DNA from: an uncultured Gammaproteobacteria bacterium
Lineage (GTDB): Bacteria; Pseudomonadota; Gammaproteobacteria; CAWCPV01
Length of the DNA stretch: 64,000 nt
NCBI GenBank assembly: GCA_963797555.1
Contig: CAWCPV010000003.1
Span: 416,001 to 480,000, forward strand
Direction: 5' to 3'
Positions 49,215 through 64,000 of this stretch are shown here, piece after piece. Position 1 is the stretch's first letter; each line of letters starts with the position of its first letter. The position numbers and the translations under genes were made by a program. The notes beneath the pieces are model-generated. The model saw only the letters and a list, made by a program, of their open reading frames with translations, ran no database searches and had not been told where the DNA came from.

Positions 49215-53541
<4,327 letters not shown>

Positions 53542-53545
53542 TCCC

Positions 53546-54034
53546 ATGGCAGCCAGGTTCTCGGACCACGAAATCGTCCAGATGCTTCGAGAGCGGAAGC
53601 ACTTGCCGGGGGATTACCAGGCGAAGCTACACTTGCGGGAAAAGCGTGGCCATAAGGAACGTGAGCTTGACTTGGAGGGAGAACAGGGGAGCCAGTACCG
53701 GCTGATATTGCGCCAGAGCAATTTCAACTTGCTGGATTTTTCCATCATCCTCGCCTATAGCCCACCGGCTTCGACCCAATTGTTCCGCCTTCGCCGCTAC
53801 AACGGGAAGAGCCACGAACACACCAACCACATCGAGACCACCACGTTCTACGATTTCCACATCCATCAGGCGACCGAGAGATACCAGGCGATCGGTACAC
53901 GCGAGGATGCTTACGCGGAGGCCACCGATCGTTACAGCGACTTCCGCTCGGCGCTTCGATGTCTGTTGGAAGACTGCGGGTTTGAGCATCCCGAGGGTGC
54001 CCAGAAGTCCCTGTTCGGGGAGTTCGATCTATGA
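53546..54034 (+). CDS. Hypothetical protein (DUF6978-like, His-rich motifs)
   Basis: Intact 162-aa ORF with [13 protein letters not shown] and FHIH motifs; stop overlaps the next start (ATGA). Family label tentative. Confidence 0.7.
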
Positions 54035-54840
54035 CCATCCAAGCTATTGAACAGGATTTTCGAACGAAGGTCTGCTCCAAGATCCGGCTTGCCGAGGAAG
54101 GTGTCGAACGCTTCCGGGTGTTTACCCCTTTCCTTTTCGAGGACGGGGACCACCTTGCCATCGTCATGAAGCGGGAACCGACCGGTTGGGTGCTGTCCGA
54201 CGAAGGACATACCTATATGCACCTCACCTACGATCTGGACGAGAAAGACCTCCAGCGGGGCACCCGGCAGAAATTGATTGCTGGTGCGTTATCGGTCTTC
54301 CATGTGGAGGACCGGGAGGGGGAGCTGGTCCTGCGTGTCCCGGAGGAGCATTTCGGCGACGCCCTCTATTCCTTTGTCCAGGCGCTGCTCAAGGTCACCG
54401 ACGTTTCCTTCCTCTCGCGGGAACGGGTGCGGTCCACGTTCATGGAGGACTTCCGTGAGATGGTGGAGTCCGCCGTCCCAGAGGATCGGCGGACCTTCGA
54501 CTGGCGCCATCCGCAGCACGACCCCCACGGGATGTACATCGTGGACTGCCGGGTCAACGGCATGACCAGGCCGCTGTTCGTCTATGCCCTCCCGAACGAC
54601 GACCGCGTCAGGGACGCCACCATCGGGCTGCTGCAGTTCGAGAAGTGGGGTGTTTCCCATCGATCCCTGGGGATCTTCGAAGAGCAGGAGTCCATCAACC
54701 GGAAGGTGCTGGCGCGCTTCAGCGATGTGTGCGAGAAACAGTTCTCCAGCCTGGGCGCAAACCGAGAGCGGATCACTCGATACCTGGAAGAGACCACGCA
54801 GGAGGTGGACGCTGAGCAGACCAATGGGCGTGACCATTGA
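54031..54840 (+). CDS. DUF1828-like protein
   Basis: Intact 269-aa ORF with [11 protein letters not shown] and [10 protein letters not shown]-terminal motif. Family label from memory. Confidence 0.7.
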
Positions 54841-54952
54841 ACGAACAGGCTTGGGGACCTGGCACCTCCAATTCCTTGCGGGCCATCGATCGCCTTCGGC
54901 CGACCCTCCAATTGTTCCCGAACAGGCTTACCACGGGCGTGCTAGCATATCG

Positions 54953-54967
54953 ATACCAAAACGGTAT
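54953..54967 (+). promoter_or_regulatory. Candidate autoregulatory operator for the TA pair
   Basis: Inverted repeat ATACC-N5-GGTAT just before the AGGAG RBS of the RHH gene. Confidence 0.4.
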
Positions 54968-54980
54968 ACAGGAGTTGCCT

Positions 54981-55292
54981 ATGGCTTCCGTGCTGATAAA
55001 GAACCTGCCTGACGATCTCCACCGCGCGTTGAAGCAGCGAGCCGAGCGCCACCATCGCAGCCTGAACAAGGAAATCATCGCGCTGATCGAGTCGGCCCTG
55101 ACCGGCCAGGCGGGAAAGGAGCCACCGCAGCCCGCCGGGCTGCGTAGGCCCCTTGCGCAAGAGGTGCTGGATGAGGCCCGGCAGAAAAAGGCGGCGCGCG
55201 TCCTTGCGCTGCGCGGAAAGTACCGGAACTCCGTTTCGTCGAGTGAGGAGTTCGCCGCGCGCAAGGCAGCCGAGATCGAGCTGGAACGCTAA
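54981..55292 (+). CDS. Ribbon-helix-helix (FitA/Arc-like) antitoxin
   Basis: MASVLIKNLPDDLHRALKQRAERHHRSLNKEII RHH pattern; RBS AGGAG. Confidence 0.8.
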   Translation: MASVLIKNLPDDLHRALKQRAERHHRSLNKEIIALIESALTGQAGKEPPQPAGLRRPLAQEVLDEARQKKAARVLALRGKYRNSVSSSEEFAARKAAEIELER

Positions 55293-55350
55293 CCGGTCAT
55301 GGCGATTGTCGCCACCCCAGATTATGAAGGCACTTGCGCCATGACCGGTT

Positions 55351-55386
55351 CCCTCACCCCTCCCTCTCCCGCAGGCGGGCGAGGGC
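55351..55386. repeat. REP-like hairpin (CCCTCACCC...CCCTCTCCC...GAGGG type)
   Basis: CCCTCACCCCTCCCTCTCCCGCAGGCGGGCGAGGG forms an imperfect palindrome. Confidence 0.6.
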
Positions 55387-55423
55387 GAGGCGGAGCGCCT
55401 GCGGCGCCTCTTCAGACGAACGC

Positions 55424-55822
55424 ATGAGCTACGTCCTGGATGCGTGCGCTCTCATTGTCTTCCTTCGCGGGGAGGCGGGATCGGAGATTGTCGAAAAACG
55501 CTTGATCGAGGGGACCTGCTACGCGCACGCAGTCAACCTGTGCGAGGTCTACTACGACTGCATCCGCGTCGGGGGAGAGGCCCAGGCCGAAGCGCTGGTC
55601 CGCGAGCTGCTGGATGCGGGTCTGAGCAGCCGTACCGATATCGACGAGGACTTCTGGAAGGACGTCGGGCGGACCAAGGCCGGCGTTGGGCGGATCTCGC
55701 TTGCGGACTGTTTCGCGATCGCCCTGGCGAGGCGGCTGGGCGTGCCCGTACTGACCTCCGATCACCACGAATTCGACGGCATCCTGGCCCAGGGAATCTG
55801 CGCCGTGGAGTTCATTCGGTGA
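55424..55822 (+). CDS. vapC: PIN-domain (VapC-like) ribonuclease toxin
   Basis: YVLDACA, VNLCEV, SLADCFAIALA, LTSDHHEF acidic PIN residues. Confidence 0.88.
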   Translation: MSYVLDACALIVFLRGEAGSEIVEKRLIEGTCYAHAVNLCEVYYDCIRVGGEAQAEALVRELLDAGLSSRTDIDEDFWKDVGRTKAGVGRISLADCFAIALARRLGVPVLTSDHHEFDGILAQGICAVEFIR

Positions 55823-58800
55823 CCGATCGACAGGCAGGCTTGCTCGAGTCGGAGGAAGCAAACAGCGGCGGGCCCCTGACCTGCCTGGGGCTAACCTTCC
55901 CGAACGACGGGGAGCGCCGAAAGCACTTCCTCGGCATTCTGCGCGAGAAGCTGAAGGACCCCGAGTTCCGCAAGATCGAGGGTTTCCCCATCGGCTCGGA
56001 CGAGGACATCCTGCGCCTCTCCGACCCGCCCTATTACACCGCCTGCCCCAACCCTTGGCTCACCGACTTCGTGGCCCATTACGGCCGGCCCTACGACGCG
56101 GCCGAGCCTTACCGCCGCGAGCCCTTCGCCGTGGACGTGAGCGTGGGCAAAACCGACCCGCTCTACAAGGCCCACGGCTACCACACCAAGGTGCCCGCAC
56201 CTCGCCATCGTCCCCTCCATCCTCCACTACACGCGCCCCGGGGACATCGTGCTGGACGGCTTCGCCGGCTCCGGCATGACCGCGGTCGCCGCCCAGTGGT
56301 GCGGCGCCGCCCCGGCCGCGTACCGTTACGAGCTGGAAGCCGAATGGAAGAAGGCCGGACGAGAAAGGCCCCAATGGGGCGCCCGCCGCGCCATCGTCGG
56401 TGACCTCTCGCCCGCTGCCACCTTCATCGCCGCCGGCTACAACCTGCCCTTCGACGTGACGGCCTTCGAGAAGGCTGCGAAACGCCTCCTCGGGGAGGTG
56501 GAGAACGAGATCGGGTGGATGTACAAGACCCTGCATGTGGAGCCTGCTTCCAGCAGGCTCATCCAGCAAACGGGTTTTCAAAAGCCCACTGGAATCGAGC
56601 CGGCTGCAAGCGGGCTCTCAGGCAGGCGGACCGAAGGGATTTCGGAATTCACCGCCCGCCGTGACAACCTCCCACACTGGCAAAGTCCTGGCGCCTTCTA
56701 TTTCCTGACCTTCAACACCAGTCAACACCGTGAATTGTCTCCGGGCGCGCGGGATATCGTGGCTGCAGCCCTGCGACACTGGCACGGGGAGCGGTTGCAG
56801 CTTATCGCCGCGGTCGTCATGCCGGACCACGTTCATGCGTTGATCCAACCGCTCGAAAAACTACCCGGCGTATGGTGGGACCTGGCCGAGCTACTTCACA
56901 GCATCAAGAGTTATTCCGCCAACGAGATCAACAAGCTGGACGACCGTCGGGGCGAGCCTGTGTGGCAGACTGAGAGCTATGACCGGATCGTCCGTGACGA
57001 ACGCGAATACGGCTTCGTGCTGCAATACATCGCCTGGAACCCGATCCGGCAGGGCTTGTGCGACGCTCCGGAGGAGTACCGGTGGTGGATCCAGGGGGAG
57101 GGGTTGAGAAAGGCCGGCTGGAAGCCGGCCCACCGGGCAGGATCAACTACACCGTCTGGAGCGAGGTATTCACCTGTCCCGAGTGCTCGGGCGAGGTGGT
57201 GTTCCTGGAGCAGGCGCTGGACCCGCAGACCAAGCGGGTGAAGGAGGCATTTCCCTGTCCCCATTGCGGGGCGGGACTACCAAGAAGCCGCATGGAGCGG
57301 TTTTACGAGTCCAGGTACGACGCCGCCACCGGTCGACCCGCCGCGTACCCAAGCGCGTGCCCGTGCTCATCAACTACAAGGTGGGTAAGCACGTATTCGA
57401 GAAGGCGCCGGACGCCCATGATTTTGAGATCATCCGCCGCATCGAGGCAGTGCCCCTGCCGCTCGAAGTGCCCACCGACGAGATCCCCCATATGCACATG
57501 ACGCATGAGCGGGCCCGCATGGATCCCGCGGGCGTCACCCACCTCCACCAGTTCTTCCTCCCCCGCCAGGCCCAAGCCCTGGGACTGCTGTGGCGCAAGG
57601 CGCAGGCGGAGGCCGATCCGACGTTGCGGCGGATGCTGCTATTCCTCGTTGAGCAGGCGATCTGCGGGATGTCGGTGCTAAACCGATATGGCCACGCAAG
57701 TTCTCCCAGGTCAACCAGTACCTCCCCGGCGTCTACTACATTCCTCCCAGATCTGCGAGGTCTCGCCCTGGTACGCCTGGACGGCAAGGCCAGCCGTCTC
57801 GGGACGGTTTTCCGGAAGTGGGGCCGGCTTCCAGCCGGCTGAGCCGACAGGATGGTGACTACACATGCGTCACCACTGGCACCGCAGCCGCGCTTGGCAT
57901 CCCGGACAACAGCATCGACTATATCTTCACCGACCCGCCCTTCGGCGAGAACATCTATTACGCCGACTTGAACTTTCTGGTGGAATCCTGGCATCGGGTA
58001 CGCACCGACGCCGAGCCGGAGGCCATCGTGGACCAGGCCAAGAAGAAGGGCCTGCCCGAGTACCAGCATCTGATGCAGCAGTGCTTCGTCGAGTATTGCC
58101 GGGTGCTCAAGCCCGGCCGCTGGATGACGGTGGTCTTTCACAACTCCAGGAACGCGGTCTGGAACGCCATCCAGGAGGCCATGCAGGCGGCGGGCTTCGT
58201 GGTGGCGGACGTGCGCACCCTGGACAAGCAGCAGGGCTCTTACCGCCAGGTGACCAGCACCGCGGTCAAGCAGGACCTGGTCATTTCCGCCTACAAGCCC
58301 AACGGCGGTCTGGAGCAACGCTTCCAGCTCGCCGGCGGCACCGAGGAAGGGGTCTGGGATTTCGTGCGCGCCCACCTCGGGCAACTGCCCGTGTTCGTGG
58401 CGCGCGAGGGCCGCGCCGAGACCATCGCCGAGCGCCAGCCCTACTTCCTCTATGACCGCATGGTCGCCTTCCACGTCCAGCGGGGCATGACCGTGCCGCT
58501 CTCCGCAGCCGAGTTCTACCGGGGGCTGCAGACCCGCTTCATCCCGAGAGACGGCATGGTCTTCCTCCCAGACCAGGCATCCGAATACGACAGGAAGCGC
58601 CTGACCGTCCGGGAGGTGGCGCAGCTCGAAATCGCCGTCTCCGATGAAGCTTCCGCCGTCGGATGGCTGCGTCAGGAACTCTCCAGGAAGCCGCAGACCT
58701 TCCAGCAGCTTCAGCCGCGTTTCATGGAGACCACTCGCGCCGGCTGGCAGAAGCACGAGAAGCCCCTGGAGCTCATGGAGCTGCTGGGGCAGAACTTCCT

Positions 58801-59263
58801 GCACTACGACGGCACGAACCCTATCCCCGCCCAGCTCGTGTCTTGGATGAGACAGAGCGAACCCCTGCGCAAGCTCATCGAGGAAGCCGTCGCGTCCGGC
58901 GATGCCGAGCTGGACAATGGGCAACTGCGCTTCTGTGACGAACGGAAAACGCCGAGCGCCGAACTCAGAACACGCGCCAAAGCGCGCTGGTATGTCCCGG
59001 ACCCGAATAAGGCCGGCGACCTCGAGAAGCTGCGCGACCGTGCGCTCCTCAAGGACTTCGAGGAGTATCGGACCTCCAGCCAGAAGCGCCTGAAGGTCAT
59101 CCGCATCGAGGCCGTCCGCGCCGGATTCAAGAAGGCGTGGCAGGAGCGCGATTACGCCACTATCATCACCGTGGCCCGCAAGATTCCCGAAAATGTCCTC
59201 CAGGAAGACCCGAAGCTCCTCATGTGGTGCGACCAAGCGTTGACCAGAACAGGAGGTCACTGA
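55819..59263 (+). CDS. pglXI: BREX-3 DNA methyltransferase PglXI with inserted RAYT domain; frameshifts near 56195, 57131, 57340 and 57700-57815
   Basis: LSDPPYYTACPNP, HGYHTKVP, LDGFAGSGMT (motif I), CPEC/CPHC Zn ribbon, IDYIFTDPPF (motif IV), RVLKPGRW, FKKAWQ; position in the BREX-3 gene order. Confidence 0.85.
56537..57133 (+). mobile_element. REP-flanked RAYT (Y1 HUH transposase) module inside pglXI
   Basis: RRDNLPHW, YFLTF, VVMPDHVH (HUH), SIKSYSA, WQTESYDRIVRD, YIAWNP (catalytic Tyr). Hairpins at 56537-56560, 56597-56617 and 57113-57133. Confidence 0.88.
57818..57862. repeat. Second REP doublet (REPIN-like) within pglXI
   Basis: GTGGGGCCGGCTTCCAGCCGGC followed by a degenerate inverse copy ending GACTAC (GTAG foot on the - strand). 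Confidence 0.7.
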
Positions 59264-59264
59264 C

Positions 59265-61283
59265 ATGCCATCCGAAACAAAGGCCACCCGTTCGGTTATC
59301 ACACCGAACGACCAGTTCCTTCGCGACGTTTTCGGTGTTTCGAAAGCATATTATGTTGACATCTACCAGCGCGAGTACAAGTGGACGAAAGATAATGTCG
59401 AAACACTCCTCAAGGACATTGAGGGGTATTTTGAGGAGAAACCACGTAACAAAACCGATCCCCGCGACATCCAAGCTGAAGTCAAGGAGGACTTTGAGCC
59501 CTATTTTATCAACACCTACCTGACACACAGTACGGCTAAAAACGTCTCCATTGTTGACGGCCAGCAGAGGCTGACCACTTTCCTTCTGATTCTCATCAAG
59601 CTCTACCATGTACTGAAGACGGTTGAAAAGGACAGTGCGCACTCTGGCAGAACGTTTAGCAGTCAGGCCATCGAGAAGCTAATTTTCGAGAGTGACGACT
59701 TCGGCGGCGCAGGTCGCTTCAAAATATTCAACGAAAACCGAGAAGCAACATTCAGAAGACTCGTTGAGTGTCAACCGATCCAACCGAAAGACGAAACTCA
59801 AAAGCGCATCAAGGACAACTATGACACAATTAGTGAATATTTCGACCGATTCCTTGCCGCGAACGAAGAGCCCGAACGTTACAGCCTGCGTAAGATTACG
59901 TATTACCTTTGCTATTTGCTCGATCGCGTTTCGATCGTTGAGATCAAGATAGAAAAGCAGAAAAACGTGCCCATGATTTTTGAAGTCGTCAACGATCGCG
60001 GGCTAGGTCTTTTGCCATATGAGATCCTCAAGGGCAAGCTGATCGGCAATCTGCCAGTTGAACAAAAGGAACACGCCAATTCTGTTTGGACCCAATTGCA
60101 GGACGACTACTTCAACGCCAACGCTGAGCTGAAGAACAGCACTGAAGCACAACTTGACCTTGACATGTTTTTTCGTACATTCCTGCGCGCCAAGTTCGCG
60201 GACTCGGAAAGCGAGTATGACAAGTTCGAAGGCGATTATCATAACAAGATGTATCGAGATCCGAAGGTACGAGCTTACTTTCAGGATTTTGCCGATCATA
60301 ATCTACTCTACAGCCGTGTTACAGGAGATATCAAATACTTCACAGACATCTATCTGTGGCTAAGGACGACTTACGATAACGAGTACTTGATTTTTAACAA
60401 GCTGTTGGATCAGAACCTACAATACCTACTGATTCTATCGAACCTCACGGCCAACGATCCCGAACTATCCACGAAAGTAACAGGAATTGCGAAAAAGTTC
60501 GATCAGTTCCACGCCGTAATCCGGTTGTTGGACATATACGAAAGTAGTGCGTTTCAGAGAACCATTTTCCCTGTCAATCGGGATATAAGGGATCGGTCGG
60601 TTCCTCAGGCCAAAGCGGTCTTTGATCGGGAATTGATTCGTAACCTGGAAGAATCTGAGGCAGTTCGTACAGGTGAGGTAAGGACAATGGAAGACCTTTT
60701 TACCTTCGAAAGATTTCGGGGAGTCCGCAATAGGTGGGTCAATTTCAGCAAGTACGTGTTGATGCGTGTCGACCGCTATCTAGCGGAACAACTTGACAAG
60801 CCATCCTATGCTAGTGGCCCTCTGGAAGATCTGGAGGAGCACTTCAATAGGACGACGAGACGCAGGTATGGCATGCATCTGGAACACATTTACGCTAACA
60901 ATGAGGCCAACATGGCGCTTTTCGCTCAAGGTGAGTACGGATTTGACGAACAAGCTTTCAATACAGAGCGCAACAAGCTAGGTATGGTCCTTTTATTGAA
61001 GGACAGTCAAAACCTCAGCAGTGGCAATGATAAATATTGTGGCAAGGTGGATACTTACGCGAAGAGCAACTTCATTTGGAATGAGATGCTGGCAGGCCAT
61101 CTGCCTTCTGTTGACGAACGTAACCTTCCCGAGGATTTACGTGTAGGAGCCGTTCCGCCTGATATGTCTGGTGTCTTCCCAAGAGACAAGATCGAGGATC
61201 GGCAACGGCTTATTTATAATGCAATAAGACGTCTTTGGTATGAAAATGTTGGCGACGACCGAGCAACAGCTTCCGACTGCTAG
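59265..61283 (+). CDS. GmrSD-like (DUF262 plus HNH/DUF1524-type) modification-dependent nuclease
   Basis: YQREYKW, IVDGQQRLTT, FEVVNDRG, C-terminal LEHI...N..GMVLLL...N; visibly AT-richer than its flanks. Confidence 0.85.
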   Translation: MPSETKATRSVITPNDQFLRDVFGVSKAYYVDIYQREYKWTKDNVETLLKDIEGYFEEKPRNKTDPRDIQAEVKEDFEPYFINTYLTHSTAKNVSIVDGQQRLTTFLLILIKLYHVLKTVEKDSAHSGRTFSSQAIEKLIFESDDFGGAGRFKIFNENREATFRRLVECQPIQPKDETQKRIKDNYDTISEYFDRFLAANEEPERYSLRKITYYLCYLLDRVSIVEIKIEKQKNVPMIFEVVNDRGLGLLPYEILKGKLIGNLPVEQKEHANSVWTQLQDDYFNANAELKNSTEAQLDLDMFFRTFLRAKFADSESEYDKFEGDYHNKMYRDPKVRAYFQDFADHNLLYSRVTGDIKYFTDIYLWLRTTYDNEYLIFNKLLDQNLQYLLILSNLTANDPELSTKVTGIAKKFDQFHAVIRLLDIYESSAFQRTIFPVNRDIRDRSVPQAKAVFDRELIRNLEESEAVRTGEVRTMEDLFTFERFRGVRNRWVNFSKYVLMRVDRYLAEQLDKPSYASGPLEDLEEHFNRTTRRRYGMHLEHIYANNEANMALFAQGEYGFDEQAFNTERNKLGMVLLLKDSQNLSSGNDKYCGKVDTYAKSNFIWNEMLAGHLPSVDERNLPEDLRVGAVPPDMSGVFPRDKIEDRQRLIYNAIRRLWYENVGDDRATASDC

Positions 61284-64000
61284 TAAATGGTACTACAGCC
61301 CGGACCACGGGCAGCTCTGTCAGGTCATCGAAACCCAGACGCTCTGGGGTGAGACGACCTGCCGCGTCTGGCTGCCCGGGCGTGACTCCGTGGTCCGCAT
61401 CCCGGCTTCCAGGCTCAAGCCCCTGGAGAGCCGCGGTACCGGTTCGCCGGACGATATCGCCTACGTCGCTGCCGCCGCGCGGGTGGCCGACGCCCTGACC
61501 CAGGACGTTCTGCTCGCACCCATCGAGTCCTCCGTCATCCCGCTGCCGCACCAGATTCGGGCCCTGTCCCGCGCCATCGCCAACGACCGGGTGCGCTATC
61601 TGCTGGCGGACGAGGTCGGCTTGGGCAAGACCATCGAGGCCGGGCTCATCATGCGGGAGCTGAAGCTCCGCGGGCTGGTCAAGCGGACGCTGGTCGTTGC
61701 CCCGAAAGGACTGGTGAGCCAGTGGGTCAGCGAGATGCGCTTTCACTTCGGGGAGACCTTCCAGCTCGTGCTGCCCGAGGACATCAAGACACTGAAGCGG
61801 ATTGCCCCGACGACGGGTCCGGGAAGGGGCGAGCGTGGCAATCACGACCTGAAGGTTCTTCCCGCCAACGCCTGGCAGATGTTCTCCCAGATGGTCGTGC
61901 CGATGGATTCGGTCAAGCCCCTGGACAAGCGCCGCGGATGGAGCGCCGCCCAGGTGGGCGAGTACAACCGCGAGCGGTTCGAGGACCTGATCTCTGCCGG
62001 CTGGGACCTGGTCATCGTCGACGAGGCGCATCGCCTCGGCGGCAGCACCGACCAGGTAGCCCGCTTCAAGCTGGGCCAGGGGCTCTCCGAGGCCGCGCCG
62101 TATCTCCTGCTGCTTTCGGCCACCCCGCACCAGGGCAAGACCGACGCCTTCCATCGGCTCGTCTCCTTGATCGACGCCCAGGCGTTCCCGGACATCGGCA
62201 GCGTCACCCGCGAGCGGGTCCAGCCGTATGTGATCCGCACCGAGAAACGCCGCGCCATCGACGCCGAGGGGAAGCCGCTGTTCAAACCCCGGCGAACCGA
62301 GCTTGGGCCGGTCTCCTGGCAAGAGCGCCACCGCGATCAGCAGCTCCTCTACGAGGCGGTCACCGAGTACGTCCGCGAGGGCTACAACCAGGCGATGCGG
62401 GAGAAGCGCAGCTACATCGGCTTCCTGATGATCCTGATGCAGCGCCTGGTGGTCTCCAGCACGAGCGCCATCCGCACCACCCTCGAAAAGCGGCTGGAGG
62501 TGCTCGCCGAGCCCGAGGAACAACTGACCCTGTTCCCGCTCACGTCCGAGGACGAATGGGCGGACCTGGACGGCCAGGAGCAGATGGACGTGCTCCTTCG
62601 CACCCGCCTCAAGGCGCTCAAGAACGAGCGCGCCGAGGTCAGGCTGTTGTTGGAGGCCGCGGCCCGCTGTGAGCAGGCCGGTCCGGACGCCAAGGCCGAG
62701 GCGCTGCTCGACTGGCTCTACCGCCTTCAGTCCGAGGAAGGCGACCCGGAGCTCAAGGCGCTGGTGTTCACCGAGTTCGTGCCCACCCAGGAGATGCTGC
62801 AGCGGTTCCTGACCGAGCGGGGATTTTCGGTCGTTTGCCTCAACGGCTCCATGGACATGGAGGAGCGCAAGCGGGTCCAGGAGGCATTCGCCCAGGACGC
62901 CCGCATTCTCGTCTCCACCGACGCTGGTGGCGAGGGGTTGAACCTCCAGTTCTGCCATGTGGTGGTCAACTACGACATTCCCTGGAACCCGATGCGCATC
63001 GAGCAGCGGATCGGCCGGGTGGATCGTATCGGGCAGTCCCATACCGTGCGCGCGGTCAACCTGGTCTTCGAGGACTCGGTCGAGCACCGGGTCCGGGAAG
63101 TGCTGGAGCAGAAGCTCGCCGTCATCTTCGAGGAGTTCGGCATCGACAAGACCGGTGACGTGCTCGATTCGGCGCAGGCCGGCCGGATGTTCGACGAGAT
63201 GTATGTCGAGGCGATCCTTCATCCCGAAACGGTCGATGAGTCGGTGGACAGCGTGGTCGCCCGACTGCGGGAGGAGGTGCGCGAGGCGCGCGCGACCGCA
63301 TCGGTGCTCGGCGCGAGCGAGGAGCTGGAGCCCGGCGCAGCCCAGCGGCTGCTGAGCCACCCCTTGCCGCATTGGGTGGAGCGCATGACCGTGAGCTATC
63401 TGAAGGCTCATGGGGGCCGGGCGGAGAGGAAGGGCCAGGGCTGGAACCTGACCTGGCCCGACGGCCAGACTTACGACAATGTCGTCTTTACGGGCAAGGA
63501 GGCCGAGAGGCTTCCGGCCGCCCGCCATCTCACTCTGGAAGACCCGAAGGTCCGCGGCCTGGCTATGCGGCTTCCCCGCTTCGCGCCCGGCCAGCCGGTC
63601 CCGGTGGTGTCGATCCCGAGCCTTGCCGAGGAGGTCCGGGGCATCTGGTCCCTGTGGCGGATCGCCATCGCCGCCGCGGAGTGGAACCGCCGTAGGATCA
63701 TGCCTCTCTTTCTGGCCGACAACGGCAGGGTCTTCATGCCGACGGCCAGACACATCTGGGACCAGCTCCTCGGGGCCAGCCCGAAGGTCCGGGCCACTCT
63801 CGATCCCGACGCCTCGCAGGCCGCCTTCGCGCAGCTCCAGAAGGTCGCGGAGGAGCACGGGCGGCCCATCTACGAGGCGCTCGTGCAGGAGCACCAGGCC
63901 CGCATCGCCCGCGAGCGCGAGAAGGCCGACTACGCCTTCGCCGCCCGCCGCAGGACCATCGAGCGGAGCGGCCTGTCGCAGGTGCGCCACCATCGCCTGA
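61246..64000 (+). CDS. brxHII: BREX-3 SNF2-type helicase BrxHII (runs off the window, so absent from the ORF track)
   Basis: Translation of + strand segments: MLATTEQQLPTASKWYYSPDHGQLCQVIE..., PLPHQ, LLADEVGLGKTIEAG, IVDEAH, LSATPHQG, STDAGGEGLNLQ, WNPMRIEQRIGRVDRIGQ. Start and window end are in the same frame. Confidence 0.9.
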   Translation, partial: MLATTEQQLPTASKWYYSPDHGQLCQVIETQTLWGETTCRVWLPGRDSVVRIPASRLKPLESRGTGSPDDIAYVAAAARVADALTQDVLLAPIESSVIPLPHQIRALSRAIANDRVRYLLADEVGLGKTIEAGLIMRELKLRGLVKRTLVVAPKGLVSQWVSEMRFHFGETFQLVLPEDIKTLKRIAPTTGPGRGERGNHDLKVLPANAWQMFSQMVVPMDSVKPLDKRRGWSAAQVGEYNRERFEDLISAGWDLVIVDEAHRLGGSTDQVARFKLGQGLSEAAPYLLLLSATPHQGKTDAFHRLVSLIDAQAFPDIGSVTRERVQPYVIRTEKRRAIDAEGKPLFKPRRTELGPVSWQERHRDQQLLYEAVTEYVREGYNQAMREKRSYIGFLMILMQRLVVSSTSAIRTTLEKRLEVLAEPEEQLTLFPLTSEDEWADLDGQEQMDVLLRTRLKALKNERAEVRLLLEAAARCEQAGPDAKAEALLDWLYRLQSEEGDPELKALVFTEFVPTQEMLQRFLTERGFSVVCLNGSMDMEERKRVQEAFAQDARILVSTDAGGEGLNLQFCHVVVNYDIPWNPMRIEQRIGRVDRIGQSHTVRAVNLVFEDSVEHRVREVLEQKLAVIFEEFGIDKTGDVLDSAQAGRMFDEMYVEAILHPETVDESVDSVVARLREEVREARATASVLGASEELEPGAAQRLLSHPLPHWVERMTVSYLKAHGGRAERKGQGWNLTWPDGQTYDNVVFTGKEAERLPAARHLTLEDPKVRGLAMRLPRFAPGQPVPVVSIPSLAEEVRGIWSLWRIAIAAAEWNRRRIMPLFLADNGRVFMPTARHIWDQLLGASPKVRATLDPDASQAAFAQLQKVAEEHGRPIYEALVQEHQARIAREREKADYAFAARRRTIERSGLSQVRHHRL

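What the first reader, a model, noticed from the sequence alone, without database searches (positions are those of the whole stretch)
56537..57133. REP-bounded RAYT/HUH transposase domain inserted in frame inside the BREX methyltransferase
Seen: pglXI reads ...GWMYKTLH, then about 200 aa containing a full RAYT domain (MPDHVH, WQTESYDRIVRD, YIAWNP), then resumes at GRINYTVWSEVFTCPEC. The insert starts exactly at the hairpin GTGGAGCCTGC-TTCCA-GCAGGCTC and ends at the inverse hairpin GCCGGC-TGGAA-GCCGGCCCAC, so the hairpins are themselves translated. There is no ATG, evident RBS or stop between the insert ends and the domain. The 5' junction is in frame. The 3' junction needs one extra C at 57129-57131, and that same C makes the hairpin identical to the reverse complement of the REP at 57818, which argues for a homopolymer error. 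Known: RAYTs are HUH enzymes that cut ssDNA at REP hairpins and are normally stand-alone genes. Inference: this is either a 'translation-through' mobile element that parasitises a defence gene without inactivating it (intein-like lifestyle, no splicing motifs), or a domesticated ssDNA nuclease that gives BREX a new activity or an excision switch. Best candidate for an undescribed system in this window.
Basis: partly seen in the sequence, partly recalled or inferred. Interest (0 to 1): 0.88.

Follow-up and report, generated by a model that had tools for sequence, protein, structure and literature searches.

The report
In-frame RAYT transposase inside BREX methyltransferase
A small hairpin-flanked transposase gene sits in frame inside a phage-defence methyltransferase gene; this copy is broken, but intact versions occur in many unrelated microbes, and related ones sit inside essential housekeeping genes, which points to an apparently undescribed way of life for a mobile element.

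Summary
A REP–RAYT–REP cassette (56537-57134) lies inside a BREX type-3 (BrxXI/PglXI) methyltransferase, in frame at its 5' end and one base short at its 3' end.

The neighbouring BrxC has 5 and PglZ has 1, while other genes checked in the window are intact. This copy is therefore probably a decaying pseudogene; assembly error is not excluded.

The architecture is not a one-off:
- 43 of the 120 listed homologues, from many phyla, carry the same ~200-aa insert in the same loop as one open frame of ~1,100-1,200 aa.
- These keep the HUH and Tyr residues and mostly lack a Met start of their own.
- They are flanked by GTRG-stem-TTCCA-stem hairpins whose stems covary and are read in different frames.
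- Extra in-frame REP copies occur only in RAYT-bearing alleles.
- In host genomes the REPs are concentrated in this one gene.
- The cassette is patchy on the MTase tree (AU p≈1e-6), although its RAYTs cluster together.
- Related RAYTs sit in frame in AlaRS, ThrRS, ValRS/LeuRS, RecG, PriA, PurH, DnaK and others.

Six literature searches found no description of a RAYT resident inside a host ORF. Best reading: a gene-resident, translated-through REPtron.

The parts
49799..53538 (+). BrxC-like ATPase (DUF6079), broken: 5 frame switches
   Evidence: Pfam DUF6079 on two fragments. tblastn with the intact BrxC of L018 and L013 gives 6 collinear pieces in alternating frames.
54837..55822 (+). RHH antitoxin (FitA-like) plus PIN toxin pair, lying between BrxC and the MTase, preceded by a DUF1828 gene (54031-54840)
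   Evidence: Pfam hits. In intact relatives BrxC abuts the MTase.
55876..59263 (+). BrxXI/PglXI-type N6-adenine MTase reading frame, with 7 frame switches
   Evidence: PF01555 on two fragments. tblastn with P0001. Three-frame reading against P0052 and P0001.
56537..56559 (+). 5' REP: GTGG head, 7-bp stem, TTCCA loop, 7-bp stem; translated as VEPASSR
   Evidence: The same hairpin lies after the TLH codon in related loci.
56597..56617 (-). Degenerate second hairpin (GAGCCGGC-TGCAA-GCGGGCTC) in the linker
   Evidence: Read from the sequence. Inverted repeat I6 with the 57823 REP, 89% complementary.
56675..57088 (+). RAYT (TnpA_REP) core; HUH codons at 56828-56836; Tyr codon of YIAWNP at 57026-57028; no Met start of its own
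   Evidence: NF047646 at 99 bits against a cut-off of 80, profile positions 4-146 of 146. Profile hit to PDB 4ER8, E 5.8e-12. Motifs invariant in A1.
57112..57134 (-). 3' REP in inverted orientation (translated AGWKPA); head one base short, which gives the -1 frame switch at ~57131
57134..57817 (+). Target-recognition (TRD) module with a 4-Cys zinc finger (CPEC...CPHC), bracketed by the inverted REP pair; holds 5 frame switches
   Evidence: Sequence. TRD insert of BrxXI as described in PMC12839542 (passages).
57818..57840 (+). Third REP (GTGG-GGCCGGC-TTCCA-GCCGGCT), translated VGPASSR, at the TRD/core boundary
   Evidence: Other RAYT-bearing homologues have a REP at the same site.
59265..61283 (+). 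GmrSD-type (DUF262/DUF1524) gene between the MTase and the helicase, intact
   Evidence: Pfam GmrSD_N and GmrSD_C.
61288..64000 (+). BrxHII-like SNF2 helicase, intact, running off the window; PglZ follows at window-equivalent 64088-66110
   Evidence: Pfam and NCBIfam. One collinear tblastn piece, 79% identical to the L017 helicase. PglZ Pfam hit.

Best explanation
The feature is a decayed copy of a conserved 'gene-resident REPtron'. This is a RAYT (HUH/Tyr single-strand DNA transposase) with its two inverted REP hairpins, sitting in frame in a surface loop of the BREX type-3 methyltransferase BrxXI/PglXI. The loop is WMYxTLH|TDGKTK|GRIxYTVWS, at the entry to the TRD.

In intact relatives the cassette has no start codon of its own. 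It is made only by translating through it, hairpins included, as an extra folded domain of a ~1,100-1,200-aa MTase.

The RAYT stays catalytically competent and acts mainly on its own gene. It seeds further REP/REPIN copies there, and only in-frame copies in tolerant loops survive.

The cassette passes between MTase alleles and travels with the BREX island between phyla. I take it to be chiefly a selfish passenger that uses the host gene for expression and for protection from loss.

In this window the BREX locus itself is degenerating, so the cassette is probably a relic here.

Shown: the architecture, its conservation, hairpin covariation, patchiness on the tree, and the association with extra REPs.
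Inferred: catalytic activity, action in cis, the route of spread, and selfishness.
For: Architecture:
- 43 of the 120 listed homologues have a 187-223-aa insert at the same loop.
- 11 loci that hold both flanks keep the same frame on both sides.

RAYT competence:
- MPDHVH and Y-x3-NP are kept: my motif patterns matched 42 of 43 each, though at least two HUH matches fell outside the insert in N-truncated rows. Both motifs are invariant in A1.
- NF047646 scores above its cut-off.
- The A1 profile and the P0001 model both hit 4ER8.
- In the model the RAYT block has block-mean pLDDT 81-95 and sits between two host strands.

No start of its own:
- A Met lies within 18 aa upstream of LPHW in only 3 of 43.
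- A free-standing relative (L020) has one.

Conservation at the DNA level:
- 48 of 52 hairpins carry a GTGG or GTAG head that my search did not demand, with 18 different stems.
- The same hairpin is read as VEPASSR, AGFQPA, WSLLPAG, AGWKPA or DAGPT.

Action in cis:
- REP peptides beyond the two flanks occur in 25 of 43 RAYT-bearing proteins, but in RAYT-less proteins only as one scar among 77.
- 42 of 49 hairpins lie in the MTase span, which is 27% of the DNA examined.
- Whole-genome REP counts inside the locus: 3/3 (G000); 4/4, 4/8, 5/9 and 1/2.
- Identical copies with identical flanks occur within one ORF (L022, L012).

Spread:
- The RAYT state needs 8 changes on an N+C backbone tree, and the AU test rejects one clade (p 9.6e-7).
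- The MTase-borne RAYTs nevertheless cluster together (2 changes).
- P0004 and P0012 are about 80% identical in the backbone but 56% in the RAYT.

Wider habit:
- Relatives lie in frame in aaRS, RecG and other genes.
Against: - No activity, protein or transcript was observed; everything rests on sequence.
- The window's own copy cannot give a full-length protein as assembled.
- RAYT-less alleles have the loop TDGKTK, whereas filled alleles have no remnant of it. The event was therefore not a simple insertion, and seamless excision does not explain the empty alleles.
- The gene family is mosaic. Tree-based counts of gains and losses assume a single history and may be inflated by recombination.
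- The deeper nodes of the RAYT tree are weakly supported.
- Long conservation of the catalytic residues also fits a host-beneficial role.
- In one host genome (G004) 18 of 21 REPs lie outside the locus.
- Most sequences come from metagenome bins.
Confidence: 0.7

Rival explanations
1. Domesticated domain. The RAYT and its intragenic hairpins serve the BREX system. They could act as a single-strand DNA nuclease or sensor, or as a device that cuts and rejoins REP-bounded segments of the MTase gene (notably the TRD) to change specificity or switch the system.
For: - HUH and Tyr are kept over 41-66% sequence divergence.
- The insert sits exactly at the entry to the TRD, and a recurrent REP site lies at its exit.
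- In the window a perfect 19-nt inverted REP pair brackets the 684-nt TRD.
- TRD identity is much lower than that of the flanks in close pairs, for example P0002 vs P0045: N 92, TRD 60, C 87.
- A different RAYT lineage sits at the homologous loop of a DUF1156-type MTase (L025).
Against: - Only 43 of the 120 listed homologues carry the cassette, so BREX-3 works without it.
- In one search a REP peptide at the TRD exit is seen in only 6 of the 43 RAYT-bearing proteins, plus the window.
- TRD mosaicism is also seen between RAYT-less alleles and is usual in MTases.
- Relatives live in unrelated housekeeping genes, where no such service is evident.
Confidence: 0.2
2. The window's copy is in fact intact. 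The 13 frame switches in BrxC, the MTase and PglZ would then be consensus errors of the assembly.
For: - All 7 MTase switches lie in short G/C runs, and 6 are single-base losses.
- The assembly is 20 contigs at 84.6% completeness, and a dnaE2-like gene is also split.
- Adding one base restores the consensus REP head.
Against: - Elsewhere in the window gltB, gltD, metK, ahcY, gcvP, gcvH, gcvT, an acyl-CoA dehydrogenase, GmrSD and the 3-kb helicase inside the same locus give full-length matches or a single collinear piece with no break.
- The five BrxC switches are all +1, which is not the usual deletion bias.
- The one public run found covers none of the sites.
Confidence: 0.3
3. A one-off insertional knock-out: a REPtron happened to land in this gene in this genome, and its frame agreement at the 5' end is chance.
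For: The gene is broken here. Frame agreement alone has a 1 in 3 chance.
Against: The same junctions, hairpins and frame recur in 43 protein clusters and 15 genomic loci from many phyla.
Confidence: 0.03

Closest known systems
REPtron: RAYT/TnpA_REP gene flanked by inverted REPs (E. coli TnpA_REP, PDB 4ER8)
   Same: HUH and Tyr motifs, the fold, the GTAG/GTGG-headed hairpins in inverted orientation on both sides, and single copy per genome.
   Different: Not a stand-alone gene. It has no start of its own and is read through as an internal domain of a host protein. There is no genome-wide REP population; the few REPs lie mostly in the same ORF.
Intragenic in-frame REPs (Opitutus terrae GTAG/GTGG REPs; Rickettsia palindromic elements)
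   Same: Palindromic repeats translated in frame within functional genes, often genes for nucleic-acid enzymes such as tRNA synthetases and repair proteins (PMC3733652, passages read).
   Different: In those reports only the short repeats are intragenic. Here the transposase itself is inside the ORF, and the repeats cluster in that ORF.
Inteins with homing endonucleases
   Same: In-frame selfish inserts in conserved genes, a patchy distribution, the same site reused across alleles, and dependence on host-gene expression.
   Different: No Hint domain and no splice-junction residues. The insert presumably stays in the mature protein. The enzyme is an HUH ssDNA transposase that recognises its own ends, not the empty site.
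IS200/IS605 family (IS608, ISDra2)
   Same: A Y1 HUH enzyme with subterminal hairpins and ssDNA chemistry. These are the next-best fold matches after 4ER8.
   Different: Not multicopy. No tnpB was seen in the loci I read, though I did not search for it. The Tyr motif is the RAYT type, Y-x3-NP.
BrxXI/PglXI methyltransferase of type-3 BREX
   Same: PF01555 core, an internal TRD with a 4-Cys zinc finger, and neighbours BrxC, BrxHII and PglZ (PMC12839542, passages).
   Different: Carries the ~200-aa RAYT cassette and extra REP peptides. That paper's main text has no occurrence of 'transposase', 'HUH', 'IS200' or 'RAYT'. Its supplements could not be seen.

Membership tests
RAYT / TnpA_REP (NF047646) | Curated family model scored above its cut-off | tested here: met
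   99 bits against a cut-off of 80, profile positions 4-146 of 146.
RAYT / TnpA_REP (NF047646) | HUH motif and catalytic Tyr | tested here: met
   MPDHVH and YIAWNP in the window. Both invariant in A1.
RAYT / TnpA_REP (NF047646) | TnpA_REP fold | tested here: met
   A1 profile hits 4er8_A at E 5.8e-12. Model of homologue P0001 hits 4er8_A at E 1.3e-6, TM 0.67. The window's own peptide alone gave no PDB hit.
RAYT / TnpA_REP (NF047646) | Flanked by inverted REP hairpins with a GTAG/GTGG head | tested here: met
RAYT / TnpA_REP (NF047646) | Stand-alone gene with its own start | tested here: not met
   No ATG between 56537 and the core. A Met lies near the usual N-terminus in only 3 of 43 homologues.
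RAYT / TnpA_REP (NF047646) | Cognate REP/REPIN population dispersed in the genome | tested here: not met
   Three copies in G000, all in this gene. In host genomes 4/4, 4/8, 5/9 and 1/2 of the copies lie in the locus.
RAYT / TnpA_REP (NF047646) | Binds and cleaves REP single-strand DNA | not testable with these tools
   Needs biochemistry.
BREX type 3 BrxXI/PglXI MTase | PF01555 N6/N4 MTase core with FxGxG and DPPF | tested here: met
   29.7 bits (cut-off 26.7) on the N fragment. 23.8 bits, below the cut-off, on the C fragment.
BREX type 3 BrxXI/PglXI MTase | Neighbours BrxC, BrxHII helicase and PglZ | tested here: met
   The same order holds in related loci. BrxA and BrxF were not looked for.
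BREX type 3 BrxXI/PglXI MTase | Uninterrupted reading frame | tested here: not met
   7 frame switches.
Intein | Hint domain; Cys/Ser/Thr at the insert start; His-Asn plus Cys/Ser/Thr at its end | tested here: not met
   Pfam finds only N6_N4_Mtase and Y1_Tnp. The junctions read TLH|VEPASS and KPAP|LGRI.
IS200/IS605 insertion sequence | Several near-identical copies per genome, often with tnpB | tested here: not met
   Only one close copy in G000; the other Y1 hits are 29-37% identical. tnpB was not searched for.

The most novel reading that the evidence does not exclude
A class of non-splicing, intein-like mobile elements. These are REPtrons that live inside the reading frames of conserved genes (BREX and related MTases, tRNA synthetases, RecG, PriA, PurH, DnaK, RdgB). 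They are expressed only as a read-through domain of the host protein and edit the single-stranded DNA of their own gene. In BrxXI, where they flank the target-recognition module, they may also move REP-bounded TRD cassettes and so change what the defence system recognises.
Probability: 0.3. Interest if true: 0.9.

Novelty: new variant of a known kind. Interest (0 to 1): 0.8.

Why it matters
RAYTs are regarded as single-copy, stand-alone, domesticated transposases, and REPs as extragenic. Here the transposase itself is an obligatory internal domain of a host protein, conserved across phyla. Its close relatives occupy essential genes.

If this holds, it:
- adds a third way, beside inteins and self-splicing introns, for a selfish element to sit in a vital gene without destroying it;
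- explains the 'unexpectedly long' RAYT proteins that earlier surveys set aside (PMC6006769, passage);
- offers a tractable test system, a defence MTase with a built-in ssDNA nuclease and its substrates in cis.

It also matters for annotation. Such proteins are currently named 'REP-associated tyrosine transposase' although they are methyltransferases or tRNA synthetases.

Tried and rejected
Reads:
- The look-up of sequencing runs found one soil-metagenome run holding 8% of the sampled words.
- Laid on the region, it gave three short contigs (55952-55988, 56532-56682 and 56718-56975). None covers a frame switch and none bridges a junction. This gives no verdict on the frame switches.
- A pattern across the 3' junction that allowed zero or one extra base found nothing in metagenome contigs.

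Relatives:
- None of 60 genomes of the same class holds this MTase (one weak hit, E 7.9e-5, over 52 residues only). No close relative of G000 is held, so there was no orthologue with which to judge the indels.

Assembly quality:
- rpoB and rpoC models found nothing in the assembly.
- dnaE is intact and a dnaE2-like gene is split once.

PDB:
- The window peptide alone gave no hit. The alignment profile did.

Rejected readings:
- Intein: no Hint domain and no junction residues.
- Seamless excision as the source of the empty alleles: the empty loop xDGxxx is uniform (73 of the 74 RAYT-less proteins where my anchors matched, of 77 RAYT-less in all). Only P0081 shows a REP scar.
- An own-genome Y1 hit inside a 1,267-aa open frame (C4:479888-483688): it is a separate Y1 gene upstream of hsdR with no intervening stop, not an embedded domain.

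Literature:
- Searches returned no paper on a RAYT inside a host ORF.
- I read passages only (the 'find' mode) of PMC12839542, PMC3733652 and PMC6006769.
- All other papers were seen as search listings only. Supplements are closed and may hold relevant tables, for example the intragenic-REP list of PMC3733652 and the domain tables of PMC12839542.
- Recalled and not checked here: the primary papers on TnpA_REP biochemistry and on Rickettsia RPEs.

Full report
**What is in the window.**

The region 49.8-66 kb (the last part lies beyond the window end, read from the same contig) is a type-3 BREX-like island. In order it holds:
- a BrxC-like ATPase (DUF6079);
- a small unknown ORF, a DUF1828 gene and an RHH/PIN pair;
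- a PF01555 methyltransferase;
- a GmrSD-type gene;
- an SNF2 helicase of the BrxHII/DrmD kind;
- PglZ.

Related loci have BrxC directly followed by the MTase, then the helicase and PglZ. The DUF1828/RHH-PIN block between BrxC and the MTase looks like a later arrival. The gene between the MTase and the helicase may be one too, although some relatives also have a gap there.

The MTase has the features that a recent survey gives for BrxXI/PglXI: an internal target-recognition (TRD) insert with a four-cysteine zinc finger (PMC12839542, passages read; the CPEC...CPHC motif is seen).

**Checking the observation.**

- The frame that encodes ...GWMYKTLH runs on without a stop through VEPASSRL, about 40 linker residues, and a RAYT core with MPDHVH, WQTESYDRIVRD and YIAWNP, to AGWKPA.
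- The core scores 99 bits on NCBIfam's REP-associated tyrosine transposase model, whose cut-off is 80.
- An alignment profile of the insert hits the solved E. coli TnpA_REP structure 4ER8 at E 5.8e-12.
- The insert begins with GTGG-AGCCTGC-TTCCA-GCAGGCT and ends with the inverted hairpin.
- A third copy lies at 57818. Arms 57113-57131 and 57821-57839 are perfectly complementary over 19 nt.
- The 3' junction is a -1 shift. The 3' hairpin's head is one base shorter than the GTGG/GTAG head found in 48 of 52 related hairpins.

There are seven in all: about 56190 (+1), then 57131, 57339, 57692, 57745, 57775 and 57815 (all -1). BrxC has five and PglZ one.

Other genes give full-length matches or a single collinear piece with no break:
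- the helicase inside the same locus and GmrSD;
- every other gene I checked in the window: gltB, gltD, metK, ahcY, gcvP, gcvH, gcvT and an acyl-CoA dehydrogenase.

This uneven spread argues for real decay of three BREX genes rather than general assembly error. I could not settle the point, for three reasons:
- the only public run found covers none of the sites;
- a junction pattern found nothing in metagenome contigs;
- no close relative of the genome is held.

All seven MTase switches lie in short G/C runs, and a dnaE2-like gene elsewhere is also split. I therefore leave about 30% for consensus error.

**The architecture is conserved, not accidental.**

A search restricted to longer proteins gave 120 listed homologues.
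- 43 carry an insert of 187-223 residues at exactly this place. These are full proteins of about 1,100-1,200 residues, against about 920-930 for the others.
- Named sources include Opitutaceae, Chloroflexota, Rubrobacteraceae, Magnetococcus, Thermotogota and Desulfonatronovibrio magnus.
- A scan of one genome per species found 15 loci with the embedded form. They come from Chloroflexota, Desulfobacca, a betaproteobacterium, Brocadia, Calditrichota, a Thermococci bin, Deltaproteobacteria, Lamprocystis, Chlorobiaceae, Eubacteriales, Armatimonadetes and Peptococcaceae.
- In the 11 loci that hold both flanks, the MTase frame is the same before and after the insert.
- Empty alleles read WMYxTLH-(T/S)DGKTK-GRIxYTVWS. 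Filled alleles read WMYxTLH-VEPASSRL...AGWKPAP-(L)GRIxYTVWS.
- One RAYT-less protein, P0081, has VDPASSRLTQSEPAPRL at the site. This is a REP scar that records a loss.

**The RAYT is maintained and has given up its own start.**
- HUH and the Tyr motif are invariant in the eight-sequence alignment A1. My patterns matched each in 42 of the 43 proteins, though at least two of the HUH matches fell outside the insert in N-truncated rows.
- Only 3 of 43 have a Met within 18 residues upstream of the LPHW motif, where RAYTs usually begin.
- A free-standing relative, L020, has such an ATG. It is flanked by the same TTCCA hairpins in intergenic DNA, and its HUH motif is degenerate.
- An AlphaFold model of P0001 has mean pLDDT 73.9 and pTM 0.47, so the relative placement of domains is not reliable.
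- In that model the RAYT block is confident (block means 81-95). It lies between two host strands (248-250 and 453-466) and is joined by a low-confidence REP-encoded linker.
- The model's best PDB match is 4ER8, with TM 0.67 normalised to the target.

**The hairpins are conserved as DNA.**

In 14 embedded loci plus the window I found 52 hairpins with a TTCCA loop and a 7-bp stem with at most one mismatch. Five control loops gave 0-1 against 49 in the same 144.6 kb. Because the search demanded pairing, pairing itself proves nothing. Two things it did not demand are informative:
- 48 of 52 have GTGG or GTAG immediately 5' of the stem;
- there are 18 different stem sequences, so the stem changes while the head and loop stay constant.

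The same element is translated in at least five of its six possible frames: VEPASSR, AGFQPA, WSLLPAG, AGWKPA and DAGPT. The peptide cannot be what is conserved.

**The RAYT appears to act on its own gene.**
- REP-derived peptides beyond the two flanking ones occur in 25 of 43 RAYT-bearing proteins. Among the 77 RAYT-less proteins the only occurrence is the scar.
- They cluster at a few loops, near P0046 positions 88, 324, 400, 478 and 667. The window's third REP is at the 478 site, the exit of the TRD.
- In the loci, 42 of 49 hairpins lie in the MTase span, which is 27% of the DNA.
- In whole genomes the REP is rare and concentrated in this locus: 3 of 3 in the window's genome; 4 of 4, 4 of 8, 5 of 9 and 1 of 2 in four hosts. 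A Brocadia bin differs, with a dispersed sub-family (3 of 21 in the locus).
- Copies identical in sequence and flank within one ORF point to recent local multiplication. L022 has three; L012 has three in tandem at 45-nt spacing.
- Cis action is an inference from these distributions.

**Patchy hosts, clustered passengers.**
- On FastTree trees of the MTase C-terminal part (472 columns) and N-terminal part (227 columns), the RAYT state needs 11 and 7 changes respectively.
- On an IQ-TREE tree of N plus C columns for 27 RAYT-bearing and 22 RAYT-less rows it needs 8. The AU test rejects a single clade (ΔlnL 771, p 9.6e-7). The row choice is disclosed under Tried and rejected.
- The window's own backbone is closest to a RAYT-less protein, P0052.
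- In contrast, the 57 MTase-borne RAYTs plus the window's form one cluster, apart from two free-standing rows. A single origin is not excluded, though the deep nodes are weak.
- Region-wise identities show mosaicism. P0004 vs P0012: N 79, RAYT 56, TRD 79, C 81. P0002 (filled) vs P0045 (empty): N 92, TRD 60, C 87.
- The simplest reading is that the cassette arose once, replacing the TDGKT codons. It has since been exchanged between alleles by recombination in the flanking homology (or by transposition to the same site) and occasionally lost.
- Recombination violates the single-tree assumption, so the numbers of changes are indicative only.

**A wider habit of this RAYT clade.**

Of the other 65 loci from the same scan:
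- 48 have the RAYT inside a stop-to-stop frame of at least 450 codons;
- 17 have it in a frame shorter than that (16 of them 157-279 aa, one of 398 aa).

Pfam on 47 of the 48 gave AlaRS in 24, ThrRS in 9, class-I synthetases (Val/Leu) in 7, RecG in 4, an MmeI-type enzyme in 1 and a DUF1156 MTase in 1 (first eight).
- HUH and Tyr are invariant across the 47.
- Inverted hairpins with other loops (ATCCT, GTCTC, ATCTT) bracket many of them.
- In one complete Chthoniobacterales chromosome the ThrRS-borne hairpin has only three near-exact copies, two of them the flanks.

An unindexed search of 1.84 billion representatives with the window's RAYT core gave these figures among the best 150:
- 67 free-standing-like proteins (260 aa or fewer);
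- 36 with at least 100 residues on both sides;
- 31 with at least 100 on one side;
- 16 other.

Hosts among 40 of the long ones include Ham1/RdgB (9), class-I synthetases (8), AlaRS (7), RecG and PriA helicases (5), PurH (3), and one each of Hsp70, a type ISP enzyme and a biotin ligase.

In the DUF1156 MTase (L025) a RAYT of a different sub-clade sits at the homologous loop, just before the zinc-finger TRD. I followed this wider pattern only partly.

**Comparison with what is known.**
- In-frame REPs in genes, including tRNA synthetase and repair genes and especially in the verrucomicrobium Opitutus terrae with GTGG heads, were reported in 2013, as were REPtrons (PMC3733652, passages).
- The 2026 BREX survey's main text has no occurrence of 'transposase', 'HUH', 'IS200' or 'RAYT'.
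- Six full-text searches returned nothing on a RAYT resident inside a host ORF.
- The library is incomplete and supplements were closed, so I claim only that I did not find it.

**Verdict.**

The window's copy is most likely a relic in a decaying BREX-3 locus. It belongs to a conserved family of in-frame, translated-through REPtrons, which is worth study in its own right.

I file it as a RAYT by sequence, fold and hairpins. It fails two customary features of RAYTs: a stand-alone gene and a dispersed REP population. It works like an intein in its niche but is not one.

Whether it is purely selfish (my preference, roughly 0.7 against 0.2) or serves BREX, for instance by moving REP-bounded TRD cassettes, is open and testable.

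Noticed in passing
L024, L028 (ThrRS); L032, L073 (ValRS); L038, L044 (AlaRS); L089 (LeuRS); others among L024-L089: Relatives of this RAYT lie in frame inside tRNA synthetases, RecG and other conserved genes of Verrucomicrobiota, Phycisphaerales and others. They are bracketed by inverted hairpins with other loops, and HUH and Tyr are invariant. Among the best 150 representatives worldwide, 67 have a flank of at least 100 residues on one or both sides.
   Followed up: partly
L025:2671-6006 (and the near-identical L031): A DUF1156-type MTase (the BREX-related 'BR' kind) carries a RAYT of a different sub-clade at the loop homologous to the window's insertion site, just before its zinc-finger TRD.
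   Followed up: partly
P0081 (902 aa, Bradymonadales bin): A RAYT-less MTase with VDPASSRLTQSEPAPRL at the insertion loop. This is a REP scar showing that the cassette was once there and was lost.
   Followed up: partly
L020:7800-8740: A free-standing relative with its own ATG, the same TTCCA hairpins on both sides, and a degenerate HUH motif (ANYVH).
   Followed up: partly
window 53546-55822 and 59265-61283: An unknown ORF, a DUF1828 gene, an RHH/PIN pair and a GmrSD-type gene lie between the BREX genes. In intact relatives BrxC abuts the MTase. These inserts are intact while BrxC, the MTase and PglZ are broken.
   Followed up: partly
G000:C4:479888-483688: A different Y1 HUH protein (MPNHMH, YIVDNP) lies directly upstream of a type I hsdR, with no stop between them, giving a 1,267-codon open frame. 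hsdR has its own Met.
   Followed up: partly
G000:C14:279113-281666: A dnaE2-like gene is split into two adjacent frames at 280015/280017. rpoB and rpoC models found nothing in the assembly (completeness 84.6%).
   Followed up: no
G004 (the genome of L013, a Brocadia bin): A dispersed sub-family, GTAGCGCAGGCTTCCAGCCTGCA, with the same head and loop occurs at about 15 places outside the BREX locus. The other hosts have very few copies outside it.
   Followed up: no
L012:905-1020: Three identical REPs in tandem at 45-nt spacing (15 codons each) inside the MTase frame, at the 5' border of the RAYT.
   Followed up: no
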